In this document: piece by piece, positions 15,412 through 60,716 of the stretch
Layout: the number at the start of each line of letters is the position of its first letter
How positions within the stretch are numbered: the stretch's first letter is position 1
Source: Tubulanus polymorphus
Taxonomy: Eukaryota; Animalia; Nemertea
Assembly (NCBI RefSeq): GCF_964204645.1
Contig: NC_134028.1
Span: forward strand, 992,001-1,056,000
Direction of reading: 5' to 3'
Length of the DNA stretch: 64,000 nucleotides
Translations under genes and position numbers: made by a program
The notes under the pieces: model-generated
What the model saw: the letters and a program-made list of their open reading frames with translations, nothing else
Databases searched by the model: none
What the model was told of the DNA's origin: nothing

Positions 15412-18400
15412 ATGGAGAATAAATTTATAGGATTTATCGTTGTTTTAACGCTTGGAAATGTCGTTTTATCTGACGGTCACGATCCCAAATGGCGCAGCGA
15501 ATATCTCGACAGCGCAAATAAATTCAAGTTAGAATGGCGAATGAAAGATATGAAAGTAGAGTTTCGAGTTTCGGTACACGCTGACGGCTGGTTCGGGTTC
15601 GGTATCTCTCCGGATGGGCGGATGGCCAATAGTGATGTCGTGGTTGGCTGGATGTCTGGCGCGACTACAGGAAAATTAGTGGTAAGTATTTATAAGGAGT
15701 AAAATGGAACGTGAGCATTTTCTTCGGGGAGCAATTTCGTAGATCTTAGGAGAACAGTTGATAAATAGATTTTGTGGTCATCATGAAAACGCATGCCCCT
15801 ATTACTTGGGCTCATAAACAAACCTATATTAACGTTACATTTGTTTTATTGATAAATGAAATTCTAATTAAGTCTTGATGAAACCTTACGAACATAAAAC
15901 TAATTCAACGTGTTCCAGTACGCATATGCGAGTCCCAAGTATTTCCGCGTCATAGAATTCTGCGATTTCTGGGAAGGTAATTTTGCTTAAAACCATTTTC
16001 GCACCCTTTCTCTGCACGAACGCTTCTTATGAATCGCAGATATTTATAGTACTAGTTAGATTTCATAAGAGTTTAAGATATGAAGGGTTAATTTTGTTGT
16101 GAACAAACCGACGACATGTCACAAAACGCCGTGTTTGTTTCGGTTATTCTGGAATGCTGGAATATTTACATTCTATAGTGCATGCTATAAACTTTTGAAT
16201 GTGAATGATTGATATCATCTACAACGATACTCACATCTTCCAACTAACTAAATGAACACGAAATTAATTTCAGGATGCCCATGTAGGAGCGGGTCATGCT
16301 AAACCAGTTGCGGATACTGATTCCAATTGGTTCCTTACCGAAGCCGCTTCTACCAATCAGCGACTGGTTTTTACCTTTCATAGATTACCAAAAACTGACG
16401 ACAGTAAACAAGACATGGAAATAAAACCTGTAAGAGAAGTATTGTATATTTGTTTGGATTTATTATGATTATAAAATAGTTTCAATTGTACGTGATTTTG
16501 TAGAAATCAAAGAATTTGGCAAAGTATCAGAATTTGCTTTCACGATTGACCAGCATTTCCGAAAGGAAATCTAATTGACATAACCAGTTATTAGATTAAC
16601 TAGACTCTTCTTTGCCGCTTCAAACAGCGACACAGGGGGTCGCGCAGAAGGCAGACTGTGAGATATATTCAATTATTTATTGAATAGATCTTAATTATTT
16701 ATAGAGCGCCGATTTCTCTGATCACAATGTCCAGAGGCAAATTCTTTTTTGTCTATTCCGACCACAGGAAATATTTTCTATTCCAGTTTTATAATACATT
16801 TTGAAAATCATGGCTTTTTTATAACATTTTATAGCAGGAATTATCAGGAATAAATTAATAGACTTTTAACCTGCAGTGTTTGACTTGTGAAAGCGTATGA
16901 TATTATGTTTTTAATTTTCATCCTCTTTCGTAACATTAGGGTATGACGAATGTAATCTGGGCGTACTCTGACAGTAAAGCCACATCAATGGACTCGATAT
17001 CGTATCATGGCCCGGCCAACAGGGGCAGCAAGTCCATCGAGATCCTACCAGCGGTAACTGATCCGATGCCTGAACCAAAACCGGAGCCCACCCCGTCGAC
17101 AGAATATCCTCGAAAAGCATACCTCGATCATAAAATGAAATATTTATTGGAATGGAAATACGACGAAAAAGAAATGAAGGGTGGTAAAATAACATTCCGA
17201 GTGACAGTAAAAACGACAGGATACGTGGGTTTCGGGCTGTCCGAGAACGGCGCAATGAAAGGATCTGATATCGTTATCGGCTGGGTGAACGGTGGCAAAG
17301 CGCAACTTTACGTAAGAAAAAACACATCTTATTTCTCTTCAATCTACGTGAAATTTAAACCTCACAGAAAATGTCAGATGATCTGATTTTCTAATAGGAT
17401 ATGCACGGTATCGGAAATCAAATACCCGTCGAGGACAAGACAAACAACTGGAACCTGAAAGAGGGAAAAGAAGAGAATGGTTTTACACAACTGACGTTTT
17501 ATCGCAGTTTGGACACGTGTGACGAAGATGGTGATATTAAGATCGGGGTAAGGAACCTCGTGACGTGTTCCATTTTTGCCAGTTTCCCATTTCTCAATTG
17601 ATTCTGTAGCTTAGAAGCTCAACACAAGTTCCATTAACTTACTGAGATTTACGTGAATACGGGACCATGCGGCCAGCTAAGCAGTCGTGACTAAGATCCT
17701 GGGGCCGGTTCCATAGTCGAGATTCAAGTCCAATCGTGGTCTTAAATCTTAAAACTGGTCTTAAGTTGTTAGATTTGCTATAGAACTAAGTTGGTCTTAG
17801 AACGGTCTTAAGTCTAAGCCATGACCATGGAACTGGCCCCCTGGTCTTAAGATGTCATATTGGTTATAAAAATACGATAACCCAGACTGGTCTTAACACT
17901 AAACATGGCCGCGCAACTAGTTTGTTTAGTCGAGGACTCTAGGTGAACATCTAGTGAGCTCGAATTATCTCCTATTCTACATAAACATCTTCTTCAATTG
18001 TTATATCAAGAACGAACTCTTTTTGATACATCGATGTCCTGATAATCTTTCTCTCGTTTCACAGTCTGGAGCGACGAGAATAATATTTTCATTTAACGAC
18101 GAAGACCCGACTGATGTCAGCAATGCTATATACCACGGTTCAAACCGAGGCGTACGCACTCTGTATCTGCTGGATGAACCCGAACCGACCGTTAAACCGG
18201 GACCTGACGTAAAAACTATCGAATTAAAACCACGTCAGGTACAATATTTCGTTAAAGTCATGAGTTTAGCATGAAACTAATTCATTTTCGATGACGTCGA
18301 GGTATTAAGATAACTGGGCGATAGTTAATCTTGATTTCATCGTTTTGTTCAAGGTCACCCTTACGTCTGCCAGGACGACCTATTTCTGCTCGTTTACTAA

Positions 18401-21400
18401 GATGCAGTTACCGACCGCGCAGAAATACCACGCTATCCAGGTAAACTGATGGCTTATTACGTGTTTTACGTTAACAAGACAAATCGGAAAGAGTTAATAT
18501 TTCAGTTTAGGCACAGACCATCTGAAACCACTGCTTTTGATCACATCATTCTGTATTCATATTGTCATATTGTACAAATAGTTGTTATTCATTTCTGAAT
18601 AGATTCGTAGCTATCATAAAACATTCTGATTGTTTTTGAGTCACAAAACATTTTAGATACTTTTGGTATATTTGCCCTCTCAATACCATGTGCAAAATAT
18701 CATTTTCTGTTTTTTTTTTTCATAATTCTGTAGATGTCACAAAAGCTCGTTAAAGGCAATGAACCGTACGTGCATCACCTGCTGGTCTACAAATGTGCGG
18801 TGGGGAGGTATAATGATTCTATATTAAATGTTTACGGTAATTGTTTCACGCCGGAATTCCGTAAATTGAGATGTCGCGAAATTCTGGTTGGTTTCGCTAT
18901 CGGTTCACATGTACGTACTTACAATAAACGACTCTTTCAAAACTATTTCAAACTTGTTATATCCGTTATTATAGTGCATTCCAATATACATTAGAATGTT
19001 TTATATATCATTCTAAACCAAGTAGAATTGTCCGTTGTGATGTTCGTAATCCAATTACTTAACTCAAGATTTGTGTCTTTCTAATTGCAGGAAACTTCAT
19101 TCCCCGAAAATGTGGGAATGCCAATAGGTGGCGCTGAAGATTCAATGTACTACATGTTCGAAACCCATTATGATAATCCAGAAGGAAGAACTGGTAAATA
19201 TTTCATCTTAAATTAAATTTCCGATTTCAAAATCAAACCCTCTGTTTCGTTCCCGGAAGGTGTAACTGGTGCGTTCGTAGGGGTCTGAAGGCTATAGTGT
19301 TTATGAATTTAAAAGTGGAACATTTCCCTTAAAAGATATTAAACCATAGAATTCATCTGCGTTACTCATCATGAAGTACATTTCTAGAAATGTTAAAAGT
19401 TTTTTTCTGAAATTATTTTCCAGATATCGTCGATGATTCCGGCATAGAAATAACATACACGAGTAATCTACGTGAACAGGAAGCTGGAACGATGTTTATT
19501 GGATCGTCAGTGAGTCCTCTAGCTATGGTTATACCGCCTCGTCAGGAGAAATTCATCGCCCGAGGAATGTGCTCAAATTCCTGTTTAAGCAAGGCAAGTG
19601 AGATTTCTCTCAAAATGTTAAATCGTTCAGGGAAATATATCCAGAAGAATTCCTGAAAATGAAACACAAATTGTGATGCCGAGTTATCTCTATATTGTAG
19701 GCTTTGAACAAGTACACTAGCCAGAAAGAGATTCACATTTTTTCCGTACTAGGCCACGCCCATTTACTGGGTTCAGGCATACGCACACGTCATTTCCGTG
19801 AAGGATATGAGTTGCCATGGATACTGAACGATATGTCCTACGACTTCAACTATCAAACATGGCGACCGCTGAAAAAACCCGTGACCATTAAATCGGTAAG
19901 AATCTTATTGAAAATGTTAATAATCTATAATCGTAGAGAATCTCAGTGAGCATCAATGATTTCAGTGTTCTACTGCATCCGGTGGTCAGTTTATGCACTG
20001 TCATGGTTTAGATTTAGACCAGTCTAAGCTCTTTTTAGTTCTAATGCCCATCCAAAACAACTTAAGACAAGTTTAATGATTTTAGTCAACCGGGTCCCGA
20101 TATTCAGAAGAGAATGAAAGGATATATATATATACATGTATATTTCGTCATGATGACCGTATTCAATTAGAATTTTCAATATTTTCTTTCATATTTGCAA
20201 AGACTGATACAATTGTTACTGATTGCTACTACAATTCGGAGAAAAGAGAGGGCGTTACGTTCGTAAGTTATCGATATAAAATCAGAAATAGGTTCTACAA
20301 TTCTGAGTTTGAATTTAACGTTTTCAGCCGTTCAGGAGTTTAACTCGCAGGTTGAATACAGAAACATCAATTCCATTGTGAATGTTTCTTTTTCTAATTT
20401 AATTTCAAGGCCGGTGAAGGAACTAATGCAGAAATGTGTTACACAGTCATCCTCTACTACCCCAAATTACCGATGTCGTTCTGTACAACAAATGCTGATA
20501 CAACCACACCCGCCCTGCAAAATATGAACTGGGTCTATAAAATGGGCCAGTAAGTTCGTGTTTCTATCCATGTCGATCTTAAGTCTAGTTTAGTTCACAG
20601 TTTATCTTGCTTTTACGTCGTTCGGATATTGGTTTCCCAAGACTAAAGGAACCTCACCACGGCCTTTGAAGTGTTGCCTGATCATGATCTTGTTCTGATC
20701 ATCATAATTAAAAGAATTTGAATATCATTGCAAGATAGAGTTCTATAGTTTAAGATGGAGCTCATTTGAAATATTAGAATAGTTAATTTATCTAAAACCC
20801 GAATGGTTAATTGTGACAATTTTTTCAGAGTAAACAATTGGAACGATTGGAAAGAGGTTCGCGGTAAAATGATGAAAATGTACCAGTCGAAGGACACGTG
20901 GAGCGATCAATCCGATATCGATGACTTCCAGGAACGAGTTCTTCAGACTGATTACTATCCGGAATGTTTCGCAAAATATTCAGCCCTTGTAAGTTTCTAA
21001 TTGATAATTCCAGTCGACTGTGGCAATCGAGGATTCTGTTTGTGGCAAGCGAGGATTGGTGTTTTTGTTTATATCAGTTCGAATCTTGGTTTCCTAAAGA
21101 CAAACCCTTTACCCACAAACCGTCAGCAGTCCAGGCTCGCTACCGAATCTCCTTTCGGAGTCAATAGAAAATCTTTCTATAATTTCTCAAATTCTATGAA
21201 TGATGAATGAAAATCAGGCTAGGCTGAGTTTATAAAGAGACAATTTCTGATGCAGAAGCGAGAATTAAAAACTTTGATCCTGCAGGGTTTAGGGTTGTCC
21301 TGTGATATTGTTGTCCACGCCAGAGATGGTTGTACGGTTCCTCGAATGAGATTTGACTAAATTCTTTTAAATTCATTCTGTCTGATAAACCGTATCATTC

Positions 21401-21580
21401 ATAATGTTTCTATTCCAGGCCGATCCGTCTAAAAAGTTCAAATTTCAAATGAAACAGAAATACGAACCGATGCGACGAGACATTTGTATGAAGGTCTCTC
21501 CAGCTCCCCGAGTACAATCTTCTATCGCTGTTCTTATTCTGTCGACGCTGTCCATCCTAACCCTGATTACACGTGCTTAA
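15412..21580 (+). CDS. DBH-like copper type II ascorbate-dependent monooxygenase (MOXD1-like), two DOMON domains, ~14 exons
   Basis: Signal peptide MENKFIGFIVVLTLG. DOMON1 GWFGFGISPDGRMANSDVVVGW and DOMON2 GYVGFGLSENGAMKGSDIVIGW. CuH ligands VHHLL (18734 exon) and ETHYDNP (19091 exon); CuM ligands GHAH (19701 exon) and EMC (~20430). YDFNYQ motif. Hydrophobic tail IAVLILSTLSILTLITRA*. Confidence 0.9.
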
Positions 21581-22746: not shown

Positions 22747-22788
22747 GCACCTGACGATGATCTCTGACGAGGGTTCGAAACGTCGTGT
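22747..22788 (+). ncRNA. Putative minimal type I hammerhead ribozyme motif (Penelope-like relic); second copy 31848-31889
   Basis: GCAC-CTGACGA-T-G...C-GAAA-C-GTC-GTGT: CUGANGA and GAAA cores, GUC cleavage triplet, palindromic ACGT helix III, 4-bp helix I (GCAC/GTGT). Helix II is weak. Confidence 0.4.
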
Positions 22789-23071: not shown

Positions 23072-26000
23072 CTAAAAGCTGAACTGTCTCAGAATTGTGA
23101 TGACAAAAACCAAGAACGTGAAAGACAGGATGAAATTAGTAGCTTGAAGTGAAGTTGCGTGAGACATTCCATCGTCGCCGCATGTATTTCGCTTTAGTGG
23201 TTTATATTCCTCCTTGATCGCGAAAGTAAAAGGTTTGTCCGGTACCTACAAATATAAGACCATTGAATTACTATAGCAACGATAGCAGTAAAATTACGAT
23301 AAAAAAACATCGGAACAAATAGATTTGTATTGAGGCTAATATCATAACATCACGTGGTCATAATGTTTGATCTGTTTGTCGTTATTTTTCGTCACTTGTA
23401 TCTGTTATTTTCTATACATCCTTAATTCATTCTCATAATTCCTACATATCTTAAGCCGCATAAAAATGTATATCAGCAGATGAGTAAAATACGCACCAGT
23501 TGATTCTTCATCGAACTGCCGCATAGGGGCCAATATTGTGTGTTCAATATTTCATGTTGGAATTGGCGGATCTTTTCCTGGTCAGTCCATGTATCGCTTT
23601 CTTCATAAAAACTCAACATTATCTTTTTAAGTTTGGGCCAATTCGTCCAATCTATATTCTTACTAAGAATTCATAGAAAATTTATTTCAGTTATATTCTT
23701 TTCGAATCGATGAAGTCAGTTTTCTGATACATACTCTTTGAACTGGTCCCACCAGACTTTAGTCGCTGGTCCTGTTGTATCGGTAGTTGTATGACAATAT
23801 GTGAACGGTATTTTCGGATAGTAAGATATGAACGAATAACACATTTCGGAGGTCGTAGCTCCACCAGCCTTATAGTAATATCAAAACATGACAAATATCA
23901 TTCATATGCGGGAAAGATTTTGTTGAGTTAGTTATAGTGAACTGGTGTCAGTGTACAAAATATCTATCATTTCAGGACGTAAATTCAGGATCTTGTGATA
24001 AAAATGCGTGGATTTGGCTTCAGTTTTAACTATCTTTATATAAATCGTTTGAACTTACGAAAATAGATTGTAACCATGTAGGCCTATCAAAGATAGCTTC
24101 AGTTAAAGACGTTTTCATATCATATTACAATGTATCCGTACTTACGGAAGTCAATCATATCATTTATATCACTATGTACGCGTACTTACGTAAGTCACAT
24201 TTTCGCGCTCTTCGGTATTGAAAGTACATTCGGTCATAATCGTATCGCCCTAAAATACACAAATTAATATGAAACAAGATATAGAAAATTAGACAAAATT
24301 AAAGTAACATTTTAAAAGGCAAACTACATACCGGCTTTACAATGACAGGTTCCCTCAGCGGTCGCCATATCTGATAGTTAAAATCGTATGACGTATCGTC
24401 AGATATCCATGGCAACTCGAAACCGTCACGGAAATGACGTGTGCGAATTCCTACTCCGGCCAAGTGCGCATGTCCTAACACTGAGAAAATCTTGATTTCT
24501 TTTTCATCACCGGTGTATTCTTTAAACGCCTGAAATCAATATATTCATTTTCTAACATCAAATACTGAAATGAAAATTCTCGTTTTCTGTACTGCATTTT
24601 CACTACGTTCTTTCAATTTGCAAATAACCTCTTTGAAATACGTGTTTGTAGAACATACGAAACAATCATCTCACCCCTTCTAGACATCCTTGTGGACAAA
24701 ATCCACGATATTTAAACTTTTCTTGGCGCGGAGGGATAACTGTAGAAAGTCGCTCGCCAAAAAACATACCAGCCGTCATTAAACCCACGTCGTATTTACG
24801 CAGTTTCGACGTGTAAGTAAATCGCACCCCAGATGTATCGTATATACCTGAAATATCATATCCGATAATAATCAATCATAAACTCTGTTATAACAAGTCG
24901 ACGATGGTTTTTTTAGTGAAAAACCGAAAATTTGAATTTCAATAAATTACAACATTACGATATCTAAGTTTTTCGATTTCGTGATTGTGGGACTTATATT
25001 TTACTCTTCTTTTGCGATTCGCATTTGCGAAGTTTTACGCCGTCATGTCATAATGTGTTAAAATGATGTATTTAAAATGTTTTGGTCTCAGCAGAGATAA
25101 AACCCATGAATGAACACCCTTTCATAATTGATTGATTGAATGATGGTAACAGATTGATCTGCGCTGATCAATCTGATCACACGCACTAACTGAAGCGGCT
25201 TGCAACACTTCAACGCGGCCTGTTGGTCTAGGGGTATGATTCTCGCTTTGGGTGCGAGAGGTCCCGGGTTCAAATCCCGGACAGGCCCAAAAGTTTTATT
25301 GTTTTTCCTTATCAAAGGATCCCGCGACAGCATAAATCTGCCGGTCCCGCACTAAACGCATTTCTTAAATGCAGGTTTATTGACGTCGCAAGACATATAT
25401 TTCGAAAATCTTTCTACGCACCTGATTTCCGGTGCGGGTTATCGTAATGTATTACCAGACGGTAGTAAACACTATCGTGCGTGTCTCCAATCGATAAGCC
25501 AGTGTCTCGCGGAAAGATGATCGCCTAACAAACGGAAATAATATGAGCGAAAATGAAAATATATGATTTAGATTAGAATTTAGAAAAAAGCCGGTCATTC
25601 ATAGTATAACTAATGATAACTTACTTCACCGCCGATACCAAAAACAGCAGTGAATGTCCAACAATCTTTTGAATAACTCCTCACGCGTGGTGACTTATTA
25701 TCTCCATGAACCGATAAAACTGAATCGTTCATTTTTTTGTTACGACATTCCTTGACGGCCATATGATGGATGTGCAACTCATTTCCAGGCTGCACAATTT
25801 GTTCGATCTGCAAAATATTAGAAAAATTATTTGATATGTTGCTATGTTGATATTTCAGGTGCGCCCGAAAAAACACTGCCATTGTTTGTCGAATGGTACG
25901 AGAAAATTGCCTCTTGTCCTTCCGTTTGGATCTGACCTTGAGTTAGTACCTTTACTTTAATTTAATGCAAAAAGTGTAAAAAAAGATCAAGATCTCTCTA

Positions 26001-28506
26001 CAATGTCAACATTATATTTTTGTTTTTCCTACCGTGACACCAGTTTCCAATCGAGGCATGAATTGGTTGGTCCCGAACTATACTCAAGGTCATTTTGATT
26101 TCATATATGCGCGCGCAAACTTAATCATGATTAAATACCTTCAACACATGATGCTTTCCGGTAACTGGTATCTTGTGGAACGATCGATAATACGTGGTCC
26201 TCGCTGAGGGAAGTTCAATCTAAATAAAACAGTATATATTAATCATTCTCTAAAACCAATATATTTGCTCGTTTCAATTATAGATAGCTGTAAACTTACG
26301 AGAGGTGTTCTGAATTCAAAGCTTTTGAAATCAGGTCCTGGTGTGAAGGTTGGTTCCGGTTTGTCTAACAGATACAATGTATGAGCACCCCGATTAGATT
26401 TGTGATACTTCATTTCATCGGGTCCGGTCGGATCTTCGTCGCTATATGCGTATATGATTCTCTGAGCTCCCGACTGCTCGAAATTTATATAGAAAACAAA
26501 ATATTAATTTAATCGTGAAACTCGGATTTAGTTCTTTAGGATCCAGTTTCCAGTTGAAACGAAACATATAAAGTTATTTTCACTGATCAAATGAACAACC
26601 GTTGAACGGAATCCTGGATTCCCAGTTGCGCAGTCACGACTTACGTCAAAAACTGGTTATAGAACCAAGATGATCGACTGGTCTAGGTCTGGACTGTCTG
26701 GTCAACTGGCCCCTAATTGTTTACATTCATATCGATTTTTGAGATTAAAATCTTCAACATAATCTTCATTTGAATATATACCTCAATTTTAAGGTCACCA
26801 TTTTTATCACAAGTGTCCAATTGGCGGTAGAATGTTAATTGTGTATATCCATCTTTCTCATATCCTTCCTTCAATGTCCAGTTTGCGTATGCGTCAGGAA
26901 CAGGCATCGTATTACCCACTCCATGCATATCCTGTTTTTAACAAAGACAATCATTTTTTCTTGTTTTTTTTTCATATATAATTCATGCGATTCAATGTGA
27001 AACGGTTTCTGTACCCGTATGAACGCCGAGCCATGGTTCACCCATCCCACTACAATATCAGCATCTCTCATGCCACCGTTTTTGGACAGCCCGAAACCCA
27101 CGTATCCTGTCGTTTTGACGGTCACTCGGAATGTTATCACTGTAGATGGTGGTCCGTCATATTGCCATTCGAGTAGGTATTTCTTGGCTGGATCGAGGTA
27201 GGATCTTCTCGAGAAATGATGAGGAGCTGGTAGAAATGTACCAGGCATAGTAGTGGTTGTATATGCTGTAGTAGCATTAACGGCATGTCTAGTTGTTGTT
27301 CGTGCGGTTGGACCTGGTGTTGGTTCTGGTTCTGGTCCCGGTGATCGTATTGTTGAATTCACTGCGTCCGTTGCCTGTAAGTTTGATATTCAACGGTTAT
27401 CTATTTCACTACAATCGTATTAAACGATTTTACGGTTTAAAAACCGACACTTCAATAGGAAAAAACGAGTCCGCAGTTTCCTCTAGTTGTGGTTTAAATC
27501 AATGTTTCGAATTTATCCTGGTCATCTTCAGGCATCCTGACTATCGGAATAAGGATATCAATAGAGGGCATAATCTCTATTTACTTGATGATCTTCTGAG
27601 TGATCAAACAACATTCATTATATTCACTAAATCTTATTTGTGAAACAGCTTATTCTCACAGGAAACTGTGCGGAACATCGTGAACAGTGCAACATATACC
27701 GGTAACTAAAACTATACAAGAGATTTTAACGAAAATACTTGTTGAGAAGTTATTCAAAAAGGTGAAACTAGATCGGTGCAAAATGAACGATAGATACAAA
27801 CCTTGTATAGTTCGAGCTCTCTGCTTCCTCTGGTGTCATAACCGTGGTATGTTGTATTCCTCAACGAGGGAATCTTAGAATTGGAATATGCCCAAATTAT
27901 ATGCACCATGCCCTGAAATATATCGATACCAATATATCAACACCAGACGGATGAAGATTAATCAGATATAATCAGAAAGAAATATTAGGAAATAAAATTG
28001 TACAGGGTTGATGGTCATATCATGGGCGTCGTCTCCCGTGTCCAGATATCGCTCGAATGTAAAATTCATGCGTCCATTTGTGGAAGATGCGTTCAGTAAT
28101 TTCCAATCGGACATAGGATCTTCAGTAGGTTTAGATCTGCCAGTTAAATGAGCGTCCTTGAATATAAATACAATATCTTCTATTAGTATTTATGCACAAT
28201 TCGTTAGTATTTCGAGCTTTGTTTTAGTATGAGAAGGTTTAAGTTACTTACAACTAATCTTGCTTTAGTTGTATTTGTATCCATCCAACCGACTACGACA
28301 TCGCTACCGGGCATGTTCCCGTCCGGAGAAATACCGAACCCGAACCAGCCGTTAGTCGGTACAGAAACTCGAAATATTATCAAATTGTTCTTCACTGCCC
28401 AATACATGTGAACTGTATCTCGTTTGTCGAGATATTCGCTCCTCCATGCCTCGGTCACCGCGAAGGAAACTGCCAGCAGCAACGAAAATAGGCAAAATGT
28501 TCTCAT
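23072..28506 (-). CDS. MOXD1/DBH-like monooxygenase, double DOMON, duplicate copy 1
   Basis: Signal MRTFCLFSLLLAVSFA, two DOMON domains, IHHM, VIHYDNP (exon ~25423-25524), GHAH, SEMC, and a hydrophobic C-terminus FILSFTFLVFVITILRQFSF*. GT-AG exons are traceable. Confidence 0.88.
25217..25288 (+). tRNA. tRNA-Pro(TGG), antisense within a monooxygenase intron
   Basis: GGCCTGTTGGTCTAGGGGTATGATTCTCGCTTTGGGTGCGAGAGGTCCCGGGTTCAAATCCCGGACAGGCCC has a perfect 7-bp acceptor stem, CTCGC/GCGAG anticodon stem, A/B boxes and downstream T runs. Confidence 0.93.
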
Positions 28507-49847: not shown

Positions 49848-50760
49848 ATCGCCAGCGATTTGATGGATCGATATGGATCGATACTTTTGATTTAGATGAA
49901 GAAAGTTACTCTTTTCGATGCTACGTTTTTGACGTCCAGTTTTCGTGTGCGAAAAGATCATAATATGGAACGGTTTTTACAAGGCAGTCACGTGAGTCGT
50001 AGTTCAGATGACGTAATAAGTTATATTGTTCGTGAATCTAATTTTGAGTCTGATCGAAATATCGAACTTGTTTTCGTTCGTAAAACAATTCAGTGCTGGT
50101 TTTCAATTACAAATTCTGAGAATTCTTCCACTTTATTTATCAACGCAGTTCGTAACTAGTTTGATATCTTAAAGTCGAATATTCTAATATTGTTTATTGG
50201 CCGTTTTATTACATGGACCAAGAAAAAACCATAAAGATTAGCCGCTCCTAAAGAAACTTTTTCGCAATTTCAATGACACTTTCCTGTGCGCATACATCAT
50301 ACACGTCACATTGGCCGTAGGAGCGTGTGGCTAACTGGAATTAAAACCCAAAGTTTATGGCCAATATGACGTATGTGAGCTACATCAAAAATACATAAAG
50401 CGGTCCTCTCTGCCTGAGGCCAGTTTCACGAACACGTGACTGGGTGTGAGTTTTAATGACTGTCAAGTCTTCCTGTGAACGCAACCCTAAATACCTAATA
50501 GCCGAAATACAATTATCTTTCAAATGTCGTCATTTGCGTGGATTGAAGGCCGTGGGAAATGACACGTGGGGATTTAAAACGTTAAACCATCGAATTATAT
50601 TATAATTATAAATCGTATTCGACTGTGTATCTATGTTTCAGGCTGATTTATACTCAGATGTGATAAGATGTTTTATCTCTATCGACCATTTGGCCCTATT
50701 TAACGCGCAATGAACATCATAGAATTCACAAATTGGGACTAAATTCAGCCTAAATCCTAA

Positions 50761-53700
50761 ATGCTGTTCGTATTGATATCAGTCGTGCTTTCGAGCATTG
50801 TGGGAACGTCTTCACAGGTAAATAGATCACACAGTAACACTATCTTTTAACCTTTCACTTCGCAAAGCAATGAACCAGGTTCGTTAATTAATAACCGGTT
50901 CTATAATTTTGTCATAGTCGAACATGGCACAACAAACGATCTATTGAAAATTGTCATTCGATCCACTGAATGGTTACAGATATATGATATACAATCCAAA
51001 TGTTAAGTCGCAAAAAGAGAGTCCTAAAAAGATTTTTCGAAGGTTGATATCTTTTATCCCGCAACGAAAGAAATACTTACATCGCTCGGGGCTTTTAGCT
51101 TCAGTCAATAAAGTATTGAATGATAGAATTAATATACAAAAATCAGTCGTGAATTGAGAATTTCTTTTAAAATCAGCAATGATATACAGAGGTGGTAAAA
51201 AGATATGTTTAAAAGGGCAAATTGTGTCTAGCTTAAATCCCAGGAGGACCTATACCTGTTCATCCCTTCATACAGCGCCAGTGTAAAAAAAAGGTTCATG
51301 GGAAATAAATTCTGAAAATGAAACCGCTTTGTTAAGTATACGGTAGGAGGGGTAACTGTCTCTTAATCCCTTTTTTGTATATCAATGTTTCTTTCTGAAA
51401 ATTACTCATGAAAAACAAATTCGCGGTCGGAATTCAACGAGAATGACACTTGTAGCCATCTATTGGAATTTCGTGGAACTAATAGTTTAACGGTACAATT
51501 TGACGAGTCCGTAAACCGGGATGATTTCACTCAATCGCCATCTAGTAGAATAATTAAATAACTGGTAATCTTCTGAAATAATTACCCAGATGTATGGAGT
51601 TCTAAACATTGAAAATCAACCAACTGGAGACTTAACTCTCAATCATAACTGCGAAAATGGATCCAAAATTCTTCATTCAAGTCAAAACTAAATTGATTTT
51701 CATTTGTGTCTTTTTTCAGTTTTCACCTGAATTCATTGAATATAAACGTAAGTAGCTTTAAATTGTTGTAAGCGTGTGGCACTAGGTGTCGCTGTAGCCC
51801 ACTTTCAGGCTTAAGGTCCTAGTGACCCAATTAACTGATTTCTTTATTTTGGTTGCAGAGACTCATCCTGAAGAGTTTTCCGAAAAATTCGAAGGTGACA
51901 TCGAGATTGCACCGGATCAAAAAGTACGTAACATGTATACATCACGGGCCAGTTGCACAGTCAACACCATTCTAAGACCGTATTAGTTCTATAGATAATC
52001 CAAATTAAAACCACCCTTAAGATTAAAGACAATTTTTTGACTGAGTCATGAATATGCAACTGCTGCCCAGTTGCTCAAAATTTCGTTAAAGTTAAGCAGT
52101 TGACACGGTGATGATTAGGGCGCATTATAACCGTGGTATTTGTGGGAGCAAGTTCTGTCAAACGTGTTCTAACTACGATCCATCAGATTCCCTGAAATTA
52201 TGTTTTTCTTTGTAACGGAAGAATGCTGGGAAACACATCAAAAAATGGACGAAAGGAATTGTATATTATGACGTCAGTCAGTTAAGTAAGTTTCGTTATG
52301 TGACGTCACAAACGTCCTTCAAAAATAAAAATGCGTCTTTCTTAAACATTCACAAAACTGATCGTCGAAAATACTTGATTATCACTTTTTAAGTATAATA
52401 GACTCTGTGTGCTAGTGATAGCAATTCATCCTGACGAAGGGTAAGTTTTTTGGTGTGAATATTACCTGTGATATTTTGTTACAGGTTCGAGGGGTAAAAG
52501 TGCAGTGAGAAATGCGCTTCGGGATCTTCAAGTTGCTGTTCAGTCGTGTGTTCGATTCGAAGAGAGGACACATCAGAAAAACTACATCAGAGTTTACAGT
52601 GGTTCGGGGTAAATGGTTTATCTTGGTTACACAGTTATTAGTGGCAGTATTTTCATCACTGCTTCTAATTTACACTTATTGTGCACTTCCCAGATATTTA
52701 CAAAGCTCCGAAGAATGGACCTTAATGTTAACAGCGCTGACAATTTTTCTATTTATAAAAAAACCGTAATGTTGACTAGATATGAAATCTGCTTGTTGAT
52801 ATTTCGGTCAGCTTTTTCTTTCCATCTTCACGGATCGATTCAAAATTACAATTAGTTGTTCAAACGAAGATGTTAATATGATAACTAACCGCCATTTTGA
52901 ATAAACTTCTGAAGACGGAAAAAAAAATTTCTAGATAGACTTCGCAACTAATTTGGTCGTCAATTCGTATATTTGCATTTGTTCGAAGAATATCAGTGCA
53001 TTTAATTTCAAAACGACGAACTTTTTCAACAAATTCAATTAGATTTTGTCTATGAAATTAATCAAATATGTTTTTAATTATTTCATGTTGTAGATGTTCG
53101 TCGTTTGTAGGAATGATAGGTCGTGGTGCACAAGATCTGTCACTGAATGAACATGGGTGTCTCGGTATGGGAACGATTCAACATGAATTTCTACACGCTC
53201 TGGGATTTAAGCACGAACAATGTCGAAGTGACCGAGACGAGTATATAGATATTCACTGGCAGAATATCGACTCTAGTAAGAGATAGAAAAACATATATAT
53301 ATATATATATATTTGTTGGTTATCACAAGCCGGTTCCATTGTCATAGGCTTAGACTTCAGATCAGTCTAATACCATCTTAGTTCTATAACCAATCTAACA
53401 ACTTAAAATCAGGCTTAAGATTTAGCACCTCATATGCTATACCTGCTGCAGTGCTAGTAAATGTTTCTAGTTAAAATAAATGATTTCTAAAACGTTTTTC
53501 TTTTTTCTAGAAATGCAATACAATTTTAGAAAGGCTCAAACTGACAACCTCGGTTTAGGTTATGCTTACGAATCAATAATGCATTATGGCAAATATGCTT
53601 TTAGGTACAGCAAATTCTCAATTCCATCAGGTTCGAATCCCAGAAATTGAGGATGATTTTTCCTGTTTTCTATTATCTCTTTTTTTAATCCTAGCTCAAA

Positions 53701-54668
53701 CGGCAAACCGACCTTGACCCCAAAAGATCCCCGAGCTATAATCGGTAAGCGTGCACTTCACAAAAGAGATATCGCGATGGTGAGAAAACTTTACGGATGC
53801 TCCACAACTATGGGTAATTATATATATGTGAATCTGAGAGCGTTAACGCTATCGCTACGTTTTTCAACCGATCCAAATTTAGCCCGGGCATAAACTGGTG
53901 CGAACCAAACGTTTAAACTCGTTCCGAGTGGGTCCGTGTCTGTTTGGCGCCAACAAACGTTGGGAAAAAGCCCGGGTCAAACTTCAACATGAGTCAAATT
54001 ATTCCGTTAAATGCTCAGGCATCGTTTTGATAGCACTTTGAAACGAGTGAGTGATCTGCACTAATGAAGAGCGGACTAAATCTAACTCGGGCCTGGACCG
54101 GGCTAAATCATCTCCGTGTGGTCGCAGTAAACTTCTCGTTTCGGTAACAGTACACTCTTATATTTTGGTTGTAATGAAATAGAATGCGTTTGTTCAGATA
54201 TTCGTTGTTTCCATTTAAAGAAAAGGATTGTCTTTTTTTCTTTCTATAGAGAAAAATGAGTGCGATTGCGACTATTATACCGGGGGATGTCGTGTGAGTA
54301 AACCAGCTCCTAAAGGTTTGGCGTGTAGATGTGTGTATAAAGGCGCCTGGTCATGTTCTGGTGTAGTTACTCGATGTAAAGATCACGCGTCTGCTAAATG
54401 TTCTCAACCGGATAAAACGTTTGAATCTTGCCAGAACGGTGGCGGAGACTGCGAAGGTTATCCGTGTGACTGTAATTACAGACGTGGTGGTTGTTACATC
54501 AGTGTACCTCCCCTGCCAGGGTCGGCGTGTAAATGCATCTATAAGGGCGCATGGACGTGTCGCGGACATTCGATAGCGTGTAGAAACTCTGATGATGAGA
54601 AATGTAAAAATCCGGATAAATCGTACGCGACGTGTGAGCAAGGTCGTGGAGATTGCGGGGGATATTAA
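50761..54668 (+). CDS. Secreted astacin metalloprotease with two 10-Cys repeats, copy B
   Basis: Essentially identical to 38513-42420 at +12248; ATG at 50761. Confidence 0.88.
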
Positions 54669-55461
54669 ACTACAGTGCGCGGATGGACCCAGGGTCAATG
54701 AAGAAGGCGCGCCCGAACGGAAGGTGTCCATTTAAGAAATTTAGGGCCATTTCCAAGCTTTGTAGTGATTTCATTGCTTATACAGTAAGATTTCAGAACT
54801 TCTCATTAAAATGGTAAAACGTCTCAAAAAATTTAAATATTCTAATAGTTATTCTTTATATTCAATCCCGAGGTAAAGGGAATTTTAAGGGACCTCAAAA
54901 TTCTAGGTTGGTCGGGCCTGGTCTGCCACAACTGTGCACCCTGTAACATGTCCTTGTTTGTAAATGTGATCATACTTGTTTTGAGTAAAAATAAATCTGC
55001 CGCAGTGAAACCGGTTACTTATAAATCAGCTCGTGTGTCTTCCTTGCTTTTCTTTATATTGCATTCATGCGAATCTAGCTTCCTTGTGTCGTACACTGTT
55101 TCAGAATAATGTATGCCATGTTGTGTAGGTCGAAATCCTGTTTTTTCGGTTCAAAACTCATACATAGTCATGTGCTACGCATATTTTTGTAATTAAAGAG
55201 GAATTTTTATTTTGCTTTCGGCATCTCTCTCACCACGCTGACTAATTAGATTGGATTATATATCAGCAGCGCTTAAACGGTCGTTTTATCAATTGCGCAC
55301 AATCAAAGCCCAATTAAACAATCATTAAACTAAGCAGTGTATGTGCCATAACTCATCTACGAGGAGTCTCTACAACAGTTCGTTCGATGTTATCTACTCA
55401 AAAGGAATTTAAGTGAAGTTTAGGCCTCCTTTATACCCACAGTCGCTACCGAATCTCCTTT

Positions 55462-56994
55462 ATGGGTATATCAGAAGAGGATGACGGAGAACGTGGTCGA
55501 CTCATCGATAACAACGGTGGTAAACACAATAATGCGGGCGCTACCGAAGAAACGCTTGAAACACTGCAAGATGCCACAAAAATTACCGATGATTCTAACA
55601 AAGACGATACTTCGTGTATTTTTCACTGTCGCCGAAACCCGATAACTTTGATATCGATCGTCGCTTTAGCTTTACTGATCGACAAGATGGCTATAGCGGC
55701 TTTTTTGCTCATTTTGCCGGATTACCTACGAACGATGCCATCGAATGTCAACACTACAACCGCGGCCGGCTACGACAATCAGTCGCAACAAATCGGTATT
55801 ATCATCGCATTGTTTAATGCTGTACAGATAGCTGGTCAGATATTCGCTGGGATTTTAACTCATAGATGCGGACACAAATGCTCGTTCATGTTGGGGGTCG
55901 TATTATCATTCGCTAGTTTATTAGTGTGCGCATTGGCCGATAGGTGGTGGATGTTGATTTTTACGAGTGTTCTATTGGGTGCTTCAGCGTGTCTCACTCA
56001 TGTAGCTGGAAATTCGTACGTGGCGACAATTATCGAAGAAAAAGAACGTCGCGTTTTTGCATTTTCCATCATTTCATACGCGAAATTACTCGGCCATGGC
56101 TTGGGATATTCGTTAGCCTCATACTTGTATCAATGGCTCGGCCGTTCAGCTCCATTCCTGTTCATGTTGTCGCTGGTAGTAATTGACGGAGTTTTGAGAA
56201 TTTTCGTGTTCGTCGACGTCGATCCGGCGGATGACATTAAAACTAGCACCACCAGCAACAGCAACAACAGTACCAGCAACAGCAACAGCAGTACCAGCAA
56301 CAGCAACAACAACGGCAACAGCAGTACCAGCAGCAGCAGCAGCAATGGCAACGTCAACAGCACCACCACCACCAGCAACTGTTGCAAATCGGCTAATTAT
56401 TTCGCTGGCGTTTGTAAATCAATCCTCAGTGATCGTCAAGTTATTATCATGTTCGTCTGGCAGTTTCTAATCGCCATGTGTCTCAGTACGTATAATTCGT
56501 TCGTACCATTTTGGGCGATCAACTCGATGGGAGCCAAACAATGGGAAATAGGTACAATGATGACAATCACTTTAATCATATGCGCGTTCAGTTCTTTTAT
56601 ATTTGCAGTAATTGTATCCAAATTCCTCACAAACCGTTGGGTTTTTATGCTCATCAATCTCATCCTAACCGGAATATCATTTATAACGTTCACATTTTGC
56701 CGCAATATCTGGCAGTCCTTAGCGCCGGATTTACTGTTACGCGTTGCTCATAGTATATTCGGAACTGTATATGTATCATGGTTAACGGATCTGTGTCATT
56801 CGAGGTTTGACGATAATTACGAAACGATTATATCGCTGAATCTAATCATAGTTAACGCCGGAGCGGTGACAGGGTCACTAACGCCAGGGACTCTTATCAT
56901 TCCGTATGTTGGTTTTGTAGTTTTATTCCGGGCGATCGGTGCAGTACTCATCTCCTATTCGTTCATGTCACTGTGTTTGAGAAATGCTGCCTAA
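55462..56994 (+). CDS. Intronless SLC18-like MFS transporter, copy 3 (510 aa)
   Basis: Copy-1-type N-terminus; open 510-codon frame. Confidence 0.85.
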   Translation: MGISEEDDGERGRLIDNNGGKHNNAGATEETLETLQDATKITDDSNKDDTSCIFHCRRNPITLISIVALALLIDKMAIAAFLLILPDYLRTMPSNVNTTTAAGYDNQSQQIGIIIALFNAVQIAGQIFAGILTHRCGHKCSFMLGVVLSFASLLVCALADRWWMLIFTSVLLGASACLTHVAGNSYVATIIEEKERRVFAFSIISYAKLLGHGLGYSLASYLYQWLGRSAPFLFMLSLVVIDGVLRIFVFVDVDPADDIKTSTTSNSNNSTSNSNSSTSNSNNNGNSSTSSSSSNGNVNSTTTTSNCCKSANYFAGVCKSILSDRQVIIMFVWQFLIAMCLSTYNSFVPFWAINSMGAKQWEIGTMMTITLIICAFSSFIFAVIVSKFLTNRWVFMLINLILTGISFITFTFCRNIWQSLAPDLLLRVAHSIFGTVYVSWLTDLCHSRFDDNYETIISLNLIIVNAGAVTGSLTPGTLIIPYVGFVVLFRAIGAVLISYSFMSLCLRNAA

Positions 56995-59057
56995 TTTTTC
57001 TTCTCGTTAACTTTTGGAAAATCAGGTTTAATGACAAAATGGTGAATGCTATGGTGTTATGTATGGTTTATGGTGCATGGATAGTAAGTATTTCTCTCAA
57101 GCTCAGACGTTTATATATTGCTGTATTTTCAGAAATAAAATAAATCTTGCCTCAGATCAAAATTTTGTTGCCTGTGAATTTTACCTGATGATATCTTCGT
57201 AAGCAAGCTTATGCATCTCGACAACTCGACGTTGACATTTTCCGAAACCTGGACACATTGACGACGCACGACCTCTCTGAATGAAGAGGAATAAACTTTA
57301 ATTTCCTATGAATTCTTCCTGTGGCATGTGAGTTGTCACTCTACGCTGCCGCTTTACCGTACGCTGAAACATTCGCTGAGCAAAAGAGTTCCACTAAAAG
57401 TGGCTTGAAACCTGATTTTAAAAAGCAGATGTACCTGAAATAAAGCCTTTTGTATTGAAAAAATTATTCATTTTACAACAAACTAGTGTTGGTGAATGAG
57501 TGAATTGACTAGGAAATGTTTCAGTATTCCTCACATGCCATAGTAGACTGACTAGGCTGGACTAGATCTAAACCGTTCGGTGCTGCCCCTATGAATAACG
57601 ATAGCGGAATTTCTGTGAACTAAAATAGTAGCGCATATTTACGACGGAATATAATTTTTCCGTTTAGTAAACAATAGGGATCACTGAGGCGCCTATTTCT
57701 AATAAACTACGATACTATGAATTAGTCCTAAATTTTTAATGCTTTTCCCACCTTATTTGGGGTACGGTAACTATAATATATTTTATTAGCAAAAATTATC
57801 TTGGTCAAATCAATTACACTTACGTTACATAATTACATCAATATTACATGATTACATGTATTTGTACACATGCAAAGAGAATGAATTATTCACTAACATC
57901 TTAACAAACATAAAAAACATTTGGTAAATATCCACCTTTTTCCTTCCAAAATCCCTCGTTCTCCCAATACAAATTTACTTAGAACTAATTTACTAATTCT
58001 ATTATAGTCAAATTGCCAGTTGTGTTCTCGATAACCAACCTACATATCATACCTGTCCACTACGGCCGGCTGTCGAAAGACTCTGGCGAGCGAGTATTAT
58101 TTTAGTTCACGTTTCCCCCGCTATCGTTATACATAGGGGCAGCACTAGACGGCAAGATCACTATTTCTACTGCGGCGGGCTTCTGTTGTTTTAATATCCC
58201 GGAACCATTGAACGCTGTTGCTTTACTGAATGAAATAATTCTCTCAATTGATAAACACTCTGAACGCTCTGATTACTTTGTTTAGAAAATATTCAGTTCG
58301 TAGGTATAGAGGAGGGAATTTCTAAGGTACCTAAAAAATTCGGACGGCCCATGGAACCGGCCTCGCGTGGCATCTCCTTGTTTGTTAAATGGGATTATAC
58401 CGGTTTTGAGCGATGATAAATCTACTGCAGTTAAAATGTCTACAACTTGTCTCATTTTCATATCATTCTTCATTGGCGCGCAGAAAATTGTATCTATACA
58501 AGTCTGGTATAATTTCAATGATTTAATGCATAATTCTGCTGATTATCAATGTGTGTGTCTATAAGCGATGTTGTTTGGTCCGGGGTCGCGTCAGTATATA
58601 TGCTGCCTATCGGAATAAACACTCGAGGGTCGTGAATGTTATGGAATTATTTTTTCAGACATTTCTGTCACTACACTGAGACTAATGCATCAACGTATTC
58701 CGCTTCGAGAAACTCTAATTAGATTATATATTAGCAGCGCTTTAAAGTTCGTTTGATCAATTACGCACAATCAAAGCCCGATTAAACTATCATTAAACAA
58801 TCCGAGCTTTCTAATCTACGAGCATCACATTACCATAACTATATCAGACAAGCAGGTGTTCTGTGAAATCAAATACCAATATGTGTGCAGTGTACATGGT
58901 AGATCTGGGTGGTTATGTTTAAAGCCATTTTGACACTGTAATTGGAATTGAATATAGTGTTATATCTGCGCTCATTATATTTACTTTATATGGGTCAATA
59001 AACTAAACTGTAAACTATAAACTCATCTGCGTGGAGTCTGTACAACAGTTCGTTCGA

Positions 59058-59120
59058 TCCGGATCTACTCTAACGGAGTCCGGATCTACTCTAACGGAGT
59101 CCGGATCTACTCTAACGGAG
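59058..59120. repeat. 21-bp tandem repeat x3 upstream of transporter copy 4
   Basis: TCCGGATCTACTCTAACGGAG three times; a single unit at the paralogous site ~46803. Confidence 0.92.
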
Positions 59121-59177
59121 GAATTTACGTGGAGTTTAGGCCTCCTTTATACCCGCCGCCGCTACTGAATTTCAGTT

Positions 59178-60716
59178 ATGGTTATAACAGAACCGGAACT
59201 CCGGAATGACGGAGAACGTGGTCGACTCATCGATAACAATGGTCGTAAACACAATAATGCGGGTGCTACTGAAGAAACGCTTGGAACACTGCGAGATGTA
59301 ACAAAAATTACCGATGATTCTAACAAAGACGATACTTCGTGTATTTTTCACTGTCGCCGAAACCCGATAACATTGATATCGATCGTCGCTTTAGCCTTAC
59401 TGATCGACAAGATGGCTATAGCGGCTTTTTTGCTCATTTTGCCGGATTACCTACGAACGATGCCGTCGAATGTAAACCCTACAACCGCGGCCGGCTACGA
59501 CAATCAGTCGCAACAAATCGGTATTATCATCGCATTGTTTAATGCTGTACAGATAGCTGGTCAGATATTCGCAGGGATTTTAACTCATAGATGCGGACAC
59601 AAATGCTCGTTCATGTTGGGGGTCGTATTATCATTCGCTAGTTTATTAGTGTGCGCATTGGCCGATAGGTGGTGGATGTTGATTTTTACGAGTGTTCTAT
59701 TGGGTGCTTCAGCGTGTCTCACTCAGGTTGCTGGAAATTCGTACGTGGCGACAATTATCGAAGAAAAAGAACGTCGCGTTTTTGCATTTTCCATCATTTC
59801 ATACGCGAAATTACTCGGATACGGTTTTGGCTATTCATTGGCCTCGTACTTTTATCAATGGCTCGGCCGTTCAGCTCCATTCCTGTTCATGTTGTCGCTG
59901 GTAGTAATTGACGGAGTTCTGAGAATTTTCGTGTTCGTCGATGTCGATCCGGCGGATGACATTAAAACTAGCACCACCAGCAACAGCAACAACAGTACCA
60001 GCAACAGCAACAGCAGCAGCAACAGCAACAACAACGGCAACAGCAGTACCAGTGCCAGCAGCAGCAGTACCAGCGCCAGCAGCAGCAGTACCACCAGCAA
60101 CTGTTGCAAATCGGCTAATTATTTCGCTGGCGTTTGTAAATCAATCCTCAGTGATCGTCAAGTTATTATCATGTTCGTCTGGCAGTTTCTAATCGCCATG
60201 TGTCTCAGTACGTACAATTCGTTCGTACCATTTTGGGCGATCAACTCGATGGGAGCCAAACAATGGGAAATAGGTACAATGATGACAATCACTTTAATCA
60301 TATGCGCGTTCAGTTCTTTTATATTTGCAGTAATCGTATCCAAATTCCTCACACACCGTTGGGTTTTTATGCTCATCAATCTCATCCTAACCGGAATATC
60401 ATTTATAACGTTCACATTTTGCCGCAATATCTGGCAGTCTTTAGCGCCGGATTTACTGTTACGCGTTGCTCATAGTATATTCGGAACTGTATATGTATCA
60501 TGGTTAACGGATCTGTGTCATTCGAGGTTTGACGATAATTACGAAACGATTATATCGCTGAATCTAATCATAGTTAATGTCGGAGCGGTGACAGGGTCAC
60601 TAACGCCAGGGACTCTAATCATTCCGTATGTTGGTTTTGTAGTTTTATTCCGGGCGATCGGTGCAGTACTCATCTCCTATTCGTTCATGTCACTGTGTTT
60701 GAGAAATGCTGCCTAA
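59178..60716 (+). CDS. Intronless SLC18-like MFS transporter, copy 4 (512 aa)
   Basis: Copy-2-type N-terminus; open frame; unique 3' flank. Confidence 0.85.
   Translation: MVITEPELRNDGERGRLIDNNGRKHNNAGATEETLGTLRDVTKITDDSNKDDTSCIFHCRRNPITLISIVALALLIDKMAIAAFLLILPDYLRTMPSNVNPTTAAGYDNQSQQIGIIIALFNAVQIAGQIFAGILTHRCGHKCSFMLGVVLSFASLLVCALADRWWMLIFTSVLLGASACLTQVAGNSYVATIIEEKERRVFAFSIISYAKLLGYGFGYSLASYFYQWLGRSAPFLFMLSLVVIDGVLRIFVFVDVDPADDIKTSTTSNSNNSTSNSNSSSNSNNNGNSSTSASSSSTSASSSSTTSNCCKSANYFAGVCKSILSDRQVIIMFVWQFLIAMCLSTYNSFVPFWAINSMGAKQWEIGTMMTITLIICAFSSFIFAVIVSKFLTHRWVFMLINLILTGISFITFTFCRNIWQSLAPDLLLRVAHSIFGTVYVSWLTDLCHSRFDDNYETIISLNLIIVNVGAVTGSLTPGTLIIPYVGFVVLFRAIGAVLISYSFMSLCLRNAA

What the first reader, a model, noticed from the sequence alone, without database searches (positions are those of the whole stretch)
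15412..60716. Candidate animal secretory/biosynthetic gene cluster: Cu-monooxygenases + vesicular amine-transporter-like genes + astacin, co-amplified
Seen: three unrelated gene families are interleaved over 45 kb between conserved genes (DDX46 on the left, ADK on the right) and were multiplied by at least two overlapping tandem duplications. Established: DBH/tyramine beta-hydroxylase act inside secretory vesicles on amines imported by SLC18 (VMAT) transporters, and astacins are secreted proteases common in venoms, mucus and hatching fluids. Inference: the cluster may encode a gland-cell module that imports a small molecule into granules, hydroxylates it and co-secretes it with a protease (toxin, adhesive or tube/mucus hardening). 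Such functional clusters are rarely described in animals.
Basis: partly seen in the sequence, partly recalled or inferred. Interest (0 to 1): 0.85.

Follow-up and report, generated by a model that had tools for sequence, protein, structure and literature searches.

The report
Ribbon-worm copper enzyme and transporter array
In a ribbon worm, copper enzymes of unknown substrate sit in a recently duplicated array beside vesicle-type transporters that have lost their amine-binding residues, and the same two families likely sit together on a second chromosome, so they may handle one non-amine molecule while the neighbouring protease likely rode along.

Summary
The array is real. Database labels on identical proteins name the nemertean Tubulanus polymorphus. 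It holds three intact MOXD-type copper monooxygenases (A, B1, B2) plus a 5' fragment, two identical astacins plus a fragment, and four intronless SLC18-derived transporters.

The enzymes are MOXD-like, not DBH/TBH. The transporters keep the VMAT fold but lack N305, E312, Y341, D399 and D426, and have an Arg in TM10, so amine import is unlikely.

'Co-amplified' is only partly true: no duplicated unit carries an intact enzyme together with a transporter. One transporter copy is a chimera that one sequenced sample seems to lack.

New here: a second B-type enzyme on another chromosome has the accession number directly before a transporter of a different divergent SLC18 lineage (rough chance 0.6-2.6%, computed after the fact). 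This rests on accession order, not on DNA.

Best reading (0.42): a loose enzyme-transporter pair acting on a non-amine small molecule, with the astacin as passenger. Close rival (0.38): incidental neighbours in an unstable region. Co-expression and synteny in relatives are untested.

The parts
15412..21580 (+). MOXD-A: 14 exons, 791 aa; hydrophobic N-terminus, two DOMON domains, Cu monooxygenase N and C domains, C-terminal hydrophobic tail; six copper ligands intact
23072..28506 (-). MOXD-B1: 15 exons, 824 aa, open frame, six copper ligands; carries more of the B1/B2 differences (16 vs 6 polarised against P0006, 12 unresolved)
29396..30548 (+). Broken astacin 5' fragment: start of the signal exon missing, gene cut at the duplication junction
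32185..37611 (-). MOXD-B2: 15 exons, 809 aa, six copper ligands
38513..42420 (+). Astacin 1: 9 exons, 383 aa (first two exons are my model); hydrophobic N-terminus, FEGDI pro-motif, HExxHxxGxxH, SxMHY, two 10-Cys repeats; head-to-head with MOXD-B2
43214..44740 (+). T1: single-exon SLC18-derived 12-helix MFS transporter, 508 aa, Thr/Ala-rich central loop
46881..48422 (+). T2: transporter, 513 aa; T4-like 5' part and T1/T3-like downstream flank (chimera)
49148..49847 (-). MOXD-B3: 5' fragment only (exons 1-2 and most of exon 3), cut at the 12.2-kb junction
50761..54668 (+). Astacin 2: identical to astacin 1 (0 differences over 38412-42411 vs its copy)
55462..56994 (+). T3: transporter, 510 aa
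59178..60716 (+). T4: transporter, 512 aa
21438..39697 (.). 9.1-kb tandem duplication (21438-30548 / 30545-39697), 93-94% identical
36912..60735 (.). 12.2-kb tandem duplication (36912-48441 / 49148-60735), 98.2% identical

Best explanation
Nested tandem duplications built an array of three intact MOXD-type copper monooxygenases, two astacins and four VMAT-fold transporters that lack the amine-binding acids, and the B-type enzyme and the transporter likely form a loose metabolic pair in which the transporter would move a neutral or acidic small molecule across a secretory-pathway membrane and the membrane-anchored enzyme would hydroxylate it in the lumen, while the astacin likely came along as a neighbour. 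Shown: gene structures, intact copper ligands, loss of the VMAT residues, purifying selection on the transporters, the duplication units. Inferred: the second-locus adjacency (from accession order), a shared substrate, a shared cell, the compartment, the direction of transport, and the non-amine nature of the cargo.
For: Second locus: B-type paralog P0006 (80.6% identical to B2) is XP_074653681.1. The SLC18-like P0183 is XP_074653682.1 and P0184 is ...684, all on a 23,044,209-bp contig, not this 27,379,721-bp one. The eight proteins of this window run 533-543, so close numbers can mark neighbours. The transporters at the two loci are about 25% identical and are rejected as one clade (AU p 1.4e-5; the group was named after I had seen the trees). 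The pairing is therefore not one recent block duplication. Both four-copy transporter sets found have a B-type enzyme next to them, and both have the TM10 Arg and lack E312/D399/D426. Rough chance that at least 1 of the other 4 known MOXD loci has such a neighbour: 0.006-0.026 (gene numbers assumed; computed after the fact). Transporter copies are under purifying selection, pN/pS 0.12-0.19 over 430 codons. All six copper ligands are kept. A spliced MOXD-B transcript is in run X8.
Against: The second locus rests on accession order only; its DNA was not seen, and accession blocks may skip intervening genes. The other two transporters of that set are ...646 and ...660, 35 and 21 numbers away. 3 of 5 known MOXD loci (P0005, P0007, P0008) have no known transporter neighbour. 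The three single transporters (P0012, P0013, P0052), two of them the closest relatives of T1-T4, have no known MOXD neighbour (both family lists are incomplete). No duplicated unit holds an intact enzyme plus a transporter. B1 vs B2 has pN/pS 0.92, which looks like relaxed selection on a spare copy. Run X8 gave contigs on MOXD-B (depth about 5) and on the PfkB gene (41.5), but none listed on the coding exons of the transporters or the astacin apart from a repeat-like loop match (contigs cannot show absence). Two transporter lineages 25% identical need not share a substrate.
Confidence: 0.42

Rival explanations
1. Incidental neighbours. Three families that each expand freely in this worm share a rearrangement-prone interval. 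Tandem duplication and unequal crossing-over multiplied whatever lay between the breakpoints, and the genes have no shared substrate or cell.
For: Breakpoints cut through MOXD-B and the astacin and leave fragments. The enzyme family has members on at least 4 contigs, and the divergent transporters on at least 4. B1/B2 pN/pS is 0.92. T2 is a chimera, and transporter number seems to differ in X1. Several MOXD paralogs per genome also occur in bivalves (passage of 10.64898/2026.08.17.745212).
Against: The enzyme-transporter adjacency seems to recur on another contig with a different transporter lineage, at a rough chance of 0.6-2.6%.
Confidence: 0.38
2. A three-part gland or gut module. Enzyme, transporter and astacin are co-regulated in one secretory cell type and their products are released together. 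In the first reader's form the cargo is a biogenic amine.
For: MOXD-B and the astacin start about 900 bp apart, head to head. Astacin-like proteases are reported in nemertean mucus proteomes (passage of PMC11768458). The astacin's Cys repeats match a domain described on a family of probably secreted phospholipase D homologs.
Against: The amine version fails on residues. The enzymes have C-terminal hydrophobic tails, and mammalian MOXD1 is placed in the ER (PMC11918410 table and cited title). No astacin is known at the second locus (not searchable). X8 holds MOXD-B but no listed astacin coding contig.
Confidence: 0.13
3. The 12.2-kb repeat is largely an assembly error that placed two haplotypes in tandem.
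For: 98.2% identity is close to the level of difference between the window and X1 in single-copy DNA (28 other letters in 2784). Astacin copies are identical over 4 kb. X1 shows the T-T spacer at depth 29.8, one copy's worth, although the two spacer copies differ at only 5 sites there. The junctions were not tested with spanning reads.
Against: X1 contigs over the astacin have depth 75.1-75.7 against 37 in single-copy DNA, and 89.9-99.3 over transporters. X5 gives 1.5x over the astacin and 2.6x over the MOXD-B 5' region (selected bins). The 9.1-kb pair is 6-7% diverged. At most T2 and its spacer are in doubt.
Confidence: 0.07

Closest known systems
MOXD1/MOXD2 (monooxygenase DBH-like; copper type II ascorbate-dependent monooxygenase family)
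   Same: DOMON plus Cu2_monooxygen plus Cu2_monoox_C; six copper ligands; C-terminal hydrophobic tail; top structural neighbours are MOXD1 clusters, TM 0.90 and 0.88; not functionally characterised (PMC10244343 passage).
   Different: Two DOMON domains joined by a Pro/Thr linker; expanded in this species; only about 36% identical to the scorpion DBH-like proteins found.
DBH/TBH with VMAT (SLC18A1/2) in chromaffin granules and synaptic vesicles
   Same: Same enzyme fold (E 4e-62 to human DBH) and same transporter fold (Z 52.3, rmsd 2.2 A over 388 residues to VMAT2).
   Different: The enzyme lacks DBH's Glu after His-His. The transporter lacks K138, R189, N305, E312, Y341, D399, D426 and Y433, keeps D33 and W318, has a TM10 Arg, falls outside the VMAT/VAChT clade and is intronless.
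Animal biosynthetic gene clusters or 'bundles' (sponge oro bundle; mollusc bursatellin-oxazinin and soft-coral terpene clusters, as described in PMC12833800)
   Same: Ordinary animal metabolic genes gathered in one region and possibly repurposed.
   Different: Here there is one enzyme type only and no scaffold-forming enzyme in the window; no product, no cross-species conservation and no assay are shown.
Astacin family M12A (hatching-enzyme-like) and DUF-B of Aquatic-clade GDPD-like SMaseD/PLD homologs (PMC6299612)
   Same: Zinc motif, Met-turn and pro-motif; two repeats of about 68 aa with Cys spacing identical to the four repeats of P0160.
   Different: The passages read describe DUF-B on phospholipase D homologs; here it is fused to an astacin.

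Membership tests
Copper type II monooxygenase (DBH/MOXD/PHM) | Cu2_monooxygen and Cu2_monoox_C domains with three CuH His and two His plus Met for CuM | tested here: met
   (A, B1, B2)
MOXD subfamily | DOMON + catalytic core + C-terminal hydrophobic tail; nearest neighbours are MOXD1 | tested here: met
   (names are automatic labels; tail as a MOXD trait is recalled)
MOXD subfamily | Falls in the MOXD clade against DBH/TBH in a tree with named references | not tested
DBH/TBH | Glu two residues after the His-His motif (seen in DBH; its role in amine binding is recalled) | tested here: not met
   Leu/Ala/Val in A, B1, B2
SLC18-derived MFS transporter | 12-helix MFS fold with VMAT as best sequence and structure match | tested here: met
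   (the model was built on an alignment containing VMAT-like rows, so it leans that way)
VMAT (SLC18A1/2) | N305, E312, Y341, D399, D426 for amine binding and proton coupling (PMC11695631) | tested here: not met
   Ala, Asn, Cys, Gly, Leu in T1; no Asp/Glu within 3 columns in the second of two MAFFT alignments
VMAT / VAChT | Nested in the canonical SLC18A clade | tested here: not met
   canonical rows form a 100/100 side without T1/T4; long branches, midpoint root; only P0020 was named, the other canonical rows were chosen by residue signature
SLC18B1 (VPAT) | Groups with SLC18B1 | tested here: inconclusive
   no named SLC18B1 row; T1/T4 fall outside an unnamed group that I take from recall to be SLC18B-like (quick tree)
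Astacin (M12A) | HExxHxxGxxH, SxMHY Met-turn, pro-segment motif, hydrophobic N-terminus | tested here: met
DUF-B | About 70-residue repeat with 10 conserved Cys | tested here: met
   the paper's own alignment (Additional file 3) was not seen
Animal biosynthetic gene cluster | Linkage conserved across producing species | not testable with these tools
   no genome is held for this window and the genome search covers prokaryotes only
Animal biosynthetic gene cluster | Co-expression of members | tested here: inconclusive
   X8 contigs hold MOXD-B only; no tissue data
Animal biosynthetic gene cluster | Members act on one pathway to a known product | not testable with these tools
   needs assays

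The most novel reading that the evidence does not exclude
Ribbon worms have assembled, twice and from different transporter lineages, a two-gene module of a MOXD copper monooxygenase and a charge-reversed SLC18 transporter that makes or sequesters a specialised non-amine metabolite in gland or gut cells. This would give a genetic handle on the unknown MOXD substrate and on an uncharacterised spiralian SLC18 clade with a TM10 Arg, seen here in Owenia, Lineus and Macrostomum.
Probability: 0.3. Interest if true: 0.8.

Novelty: new variant of a known kind. Interest (0 to 1): 0.5.

Why it matters
MOXD enzymes have no established substrate (passages of PMC10244343 and PMC11918410). SLC18 transporters are known for amines, acetylcholine and polyamines. 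A locus that pairs a MOXD with an SLC18 derivative lacking the amine site, apparently twice in one genome, offers a cheap test: find the cell that expresses both and screen a shared substrate panel. If the pairing is chance, the locus is still a clear example of nested duplication and probable copy-number variation, and it flags a divergent SLC18 group that databases label as amine or acetylcholine transporters despite the missing residues. The RefSeq models here look faulty: B1 and B2 are fused and the transporter frames are spliced through.

Tried and rejected
No whole genome is held, so synteny and the second locus could not be read as DNA.

No RNA holder was listed for 39500-49400; this is no evidence on expression. 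Run X7 laid 1 record only. A second read-laying over the left half gave no result, so the 9.1-kb junction and full MOXD-B expression are untested.

Positive selection between B1 and B2 was considered because exon 8 has 23 differences in 183 bp. Rejected: synonymous sites (pS 0.157) and intron 7 (0.177) are just as divergent, which fits an older or converted tract; no partition had an excess of nonsynonymous change.

Recent block co-duplication of the enzyme-transporter pair to the second locus was rejected.

The Pfam 'New_glue' hit on the transporter loop is below the cut-off and low-complexity; not taken as evidence for an adhesive.

The ESM Atlas gave no usable hit for the Cys repeats. Earlier scan notes: nothing by place, words or sequence.

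Literature searches for a MOXD-SLC18 cluster or this locus listed no paper whose title or abstract start describes it; one search gave 0 papers. Most subscription papers are not covered.

No link to pigment or alkaloids was found in passages of PMC13565374 and PMC6410017.

The 58-row careful tree did not finish; one search is the quick tree. No complex was predicted, since binding is not claimed.
Full report
Source. Proteins identical or nearly identical to the window's carry NCBI labels for Tubulanus polymorphus, a palaeonemertean ribbon worm, on a 27,379,721-bp contig.

Gene content. The order is: DEAD-box helicase (-), MOXD-A (+), MOXD-B1 (-), astacin fragment (+), MOXD-B2 (-), astacin 1 (+), T1 and T2 (+), MOXD-B3 fragment (-), astacin 2 (+), T3 and T4 (+), an orphan frame (-), PfkB kinase (-). 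A has 14 exons and 791 aa; B2 has 15 exons and 809 aa. B1, mapped from B2, has 15 AG/GT-bounded exons and 824 aa without an internal stop. All three keep the six copper ligands. They have two DOMON domains and hydrophobic N- and C-termini. The astacin model has 9 exons and 383 aa with the zinc motif, Met-turn and two Cys repeats; its first two exons are my prediction, and the stored models begin differently. T1-T4 are single open frames of 508-513 aa.

Duplications. Self-comparison shows a 9.1-kb pair at 93-94%, a 12.2-kb pair at 98.2%, and a 2.4-kb transporter unit at 96%. The first copies MOXD-B whole, cuts the astacin and has no transporter. The second copies the astacin and two transporters but only the first 2.9 exons of MOXD-B. 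So no unit multiplied an intact enzyme with a transporter. T2 shares derived sites with T4 up to about 48300, and its flank after 48441 follows T1/T3. My inference is an 8.6-kb duplication followed by unequal crossing-over.

Reads (4 runs laid on 44100-64000). In X1, contig depth is 37 in single-copy DNA, 75.1 and 75.7 over the astacin, 89.9 and 99.3 over transporters, 60.3 over the end of T3 and its downstream flank, and 29.8 over the spacer between transporters. This fits two astacins, three transporters and one spacer, so T2 with its spacer is either polymorphic or an assembly join. Contig depth is a rough measure. In X5 raw reads the ratios to single copy are 1.5 for the astacin and 2.6 for the MOXD-B 5' region. 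These use 3 single-copy, 3 astacin and 4 B bins of 30; I left out repeat-laden bins, the end bin and bins where reads fit two places. X8 shows spliced joints in the PfkB gene (depth 41.5) and across MOXD-B intron 1 (depth 5.5). It shows no listed contig on transporter or astacin coding exons beyond repeat-like matches, which cannot show absence. X7 laid one record. The left junction was not tested.

Enzymes. A matches human DBH at E 4e-62 but has Leu where DBH has Glu two residues after His-His; B1 and B2 have Ala and Val. The nearest Atlas structures are MOXD1 clusters (its feature search ranked generic and PAM-named clusters first). MOXDs are a clade apart from DBH/TBH and are uncharacterised (PMC10244343, passages). 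Mammalian MOXD1 is placed in the ER with a proposed hydrophobic substrate (PMC11918410, passages). Bivalves have several MOXD paralogs with larval gut expression (10.64898/2026.08.17.745212, passages). B1 vs B2 has pS 0.029 and pN 0.027 without exon 4. Of 34 residue differences from exon 5 onward, 16 are on B1, 6 on B2 and 12 unresolved against P0006. This suggests relaxed selection on B1.

Transporters. The best solved matches are VMAT2 (E 3e-27), then VMAT1, then VAChT (9e-11). The model (pLDDT 82.6) superposes on VMAT2 at Z 52.3, rmsd 2.2 A over 388 residues. At the VMAT columns T1 has D33 = D74, K138 = F118, R189 = S169, N305 = A336, E312 = N343, W318 = W349, Y341 = C372, D399 = G432, D426 = L459 and Y433 = A466, plus R425 in TM10; two alignments agree on the nine columns tested in both. 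Mutating N305, E312, Y341, D399 or D426 lowers VMAT2 transport (PMC11695631, passages). Amine/proton exchange of the VMAT kind is therefore unlikely; a neutral or acidic cargo is my inference from the charge change. An Arg at that column occurs in 19 of the 109 other rows aligned (109 of the 148 non-self hits listed, kept at 400-700 aa). They include Owenia, Lineus and Macrostomum proteins, do not form one clade in the quick tree, and some may be misaligned. The closest relatives P0012 and P0013 have Thr there. In the 20-row tree T1/T4 join P0012/P0013 outside the canonical group. Copies are under purifying selection: pN/pS 0.12-0.19, with the loop and first 20 codons left out.

Astacin. It is an ordinary M12A catalytic domain. 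Its two C-terminal repeats have the same ten-Cys spacing as four repeats in an unnamed protein with a phospholipase-D-like N-terminus. This fits DUF-B as described in PMC6299612 (passages; supplement not seen). Astacin-like proteins occur in nemertean mucus (PMC11768458, passages). Its predicted start lies 902 bp from that of MOXD-B2, on the opposite strand.

Does the linkage recur? I looked up names for 22 of the 150 listed transporter hits and for the 6 Tubulanus MOXD proteins found. The window's proteins have accessions ending 533, 536, 537, 538, 539, 540, 541 and 543. On a 23,044,209-bp contig the B-type paralog P0006 ends 653681, and SLC18-like proteins end 653682, 653684, 653660 and 653646. 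These transporters are about 25% identical to T1, also have the TM10 Arg (in the three whose models cover it) and lack the acids, and are rejected as one clade with T1/T4 (group named after seeing trees). P0006 is 81% identical to B2. So 2 of 5 known MOXD loci have such a neighbour and 3 do not. Three single transporters have no known MOXD neighbour. The chance for at least one of the other four loci is 0.006-0.026 under assumed gene numbers. It would be higher if unsupported models share accession blocks or if both families gather in unstable regions. This is the one result in favour of a functional pair, and it is indirect.

Verdict. The array and its duplications are real, and the DBH/VMAT amine story fails at the residue level. 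I put a loose MOXD-B/transporter pair on a non-amine substrate at 0.42, incidental neighbourhood at 0.38, a three-part gland module at 0.13 and a mostly artefactual repeat at 0.07. Animal gene bundles are known (PMC12833800, first of five parts read). Searches listed nothing on this locus or pairing. Other papers consulted as passages only: PMC6410017, 10.64898/2026.10.09.757917, PMC8213819 and PMC13565374. Supplements were not read; those of the preprints and the DUF-B figure may bear on family assignments.

Noticed in passing
literature, PMC8213819: In mouse, Moxd1 and Slc18b1 are both named among the genes flanking the TAAR cluster, so a MOXD gene and an SLC18 gene are also near each other in mammals. 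The worm transporters look closer to SLC18A, so this may be coincidence.
   Followed up: partly
window 25217-25288 and 34388-34460 (+): tRNA-Pro(TGG) inside intron 9 of MOXD-B1 and MOXD-B2, on the opposite strand, duplicated with the 9.1-kb unit.
   Followed up: no
window 61433-62242 (-): Single open frame of 270 aa from the first Met, starting MGNC (possible myristoylation/palmitoylation start, recalled motif); no Pfam match.
   Followed up: partly
window 1185-2108 (-): Single-exon bHLH transcription factor gene, Pfam HLH E 6e-17.
   Followed up: no
window 25625-26138 vs 34799-35245: Intron 7 and exon 8 of B1/B2 are 13-18% divergent against about 2-3% elsewhere; likely an older or gene-converted tract covering the His-His region.
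   Followed up: partly
RefSeq models P0001, P0002, P0004, P0162, P0170: The public models appear wrong: B2 and B1 fused into one 1472-aa protein, 'introns' cut through open transporter frames, astacins without a signal peptide.
   Followed up: partly
P0014-P0018, P0023, P0028, P0052, P0125: A group of divergent spiralian SLC18-like transporters with a TM10 Arg and without the VMAT acids, several labelled as amine or acetylcholine transporters; the two Owenia ones have consecutive accessions.
   Followed up: partly
window 17701-17837, 41081-41176, 53329-53424, 6748-6850: Pieces of a short, very high-copy interspersed repeat in introns.
   Followed up: no
window 30024-30162, 39164-39309, 51412-51557 vs 62462-62609: A 140-bp element shared in inverted orientation between astacin intron 1 and the region upstream of the orphan frame.
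   Followed up: no
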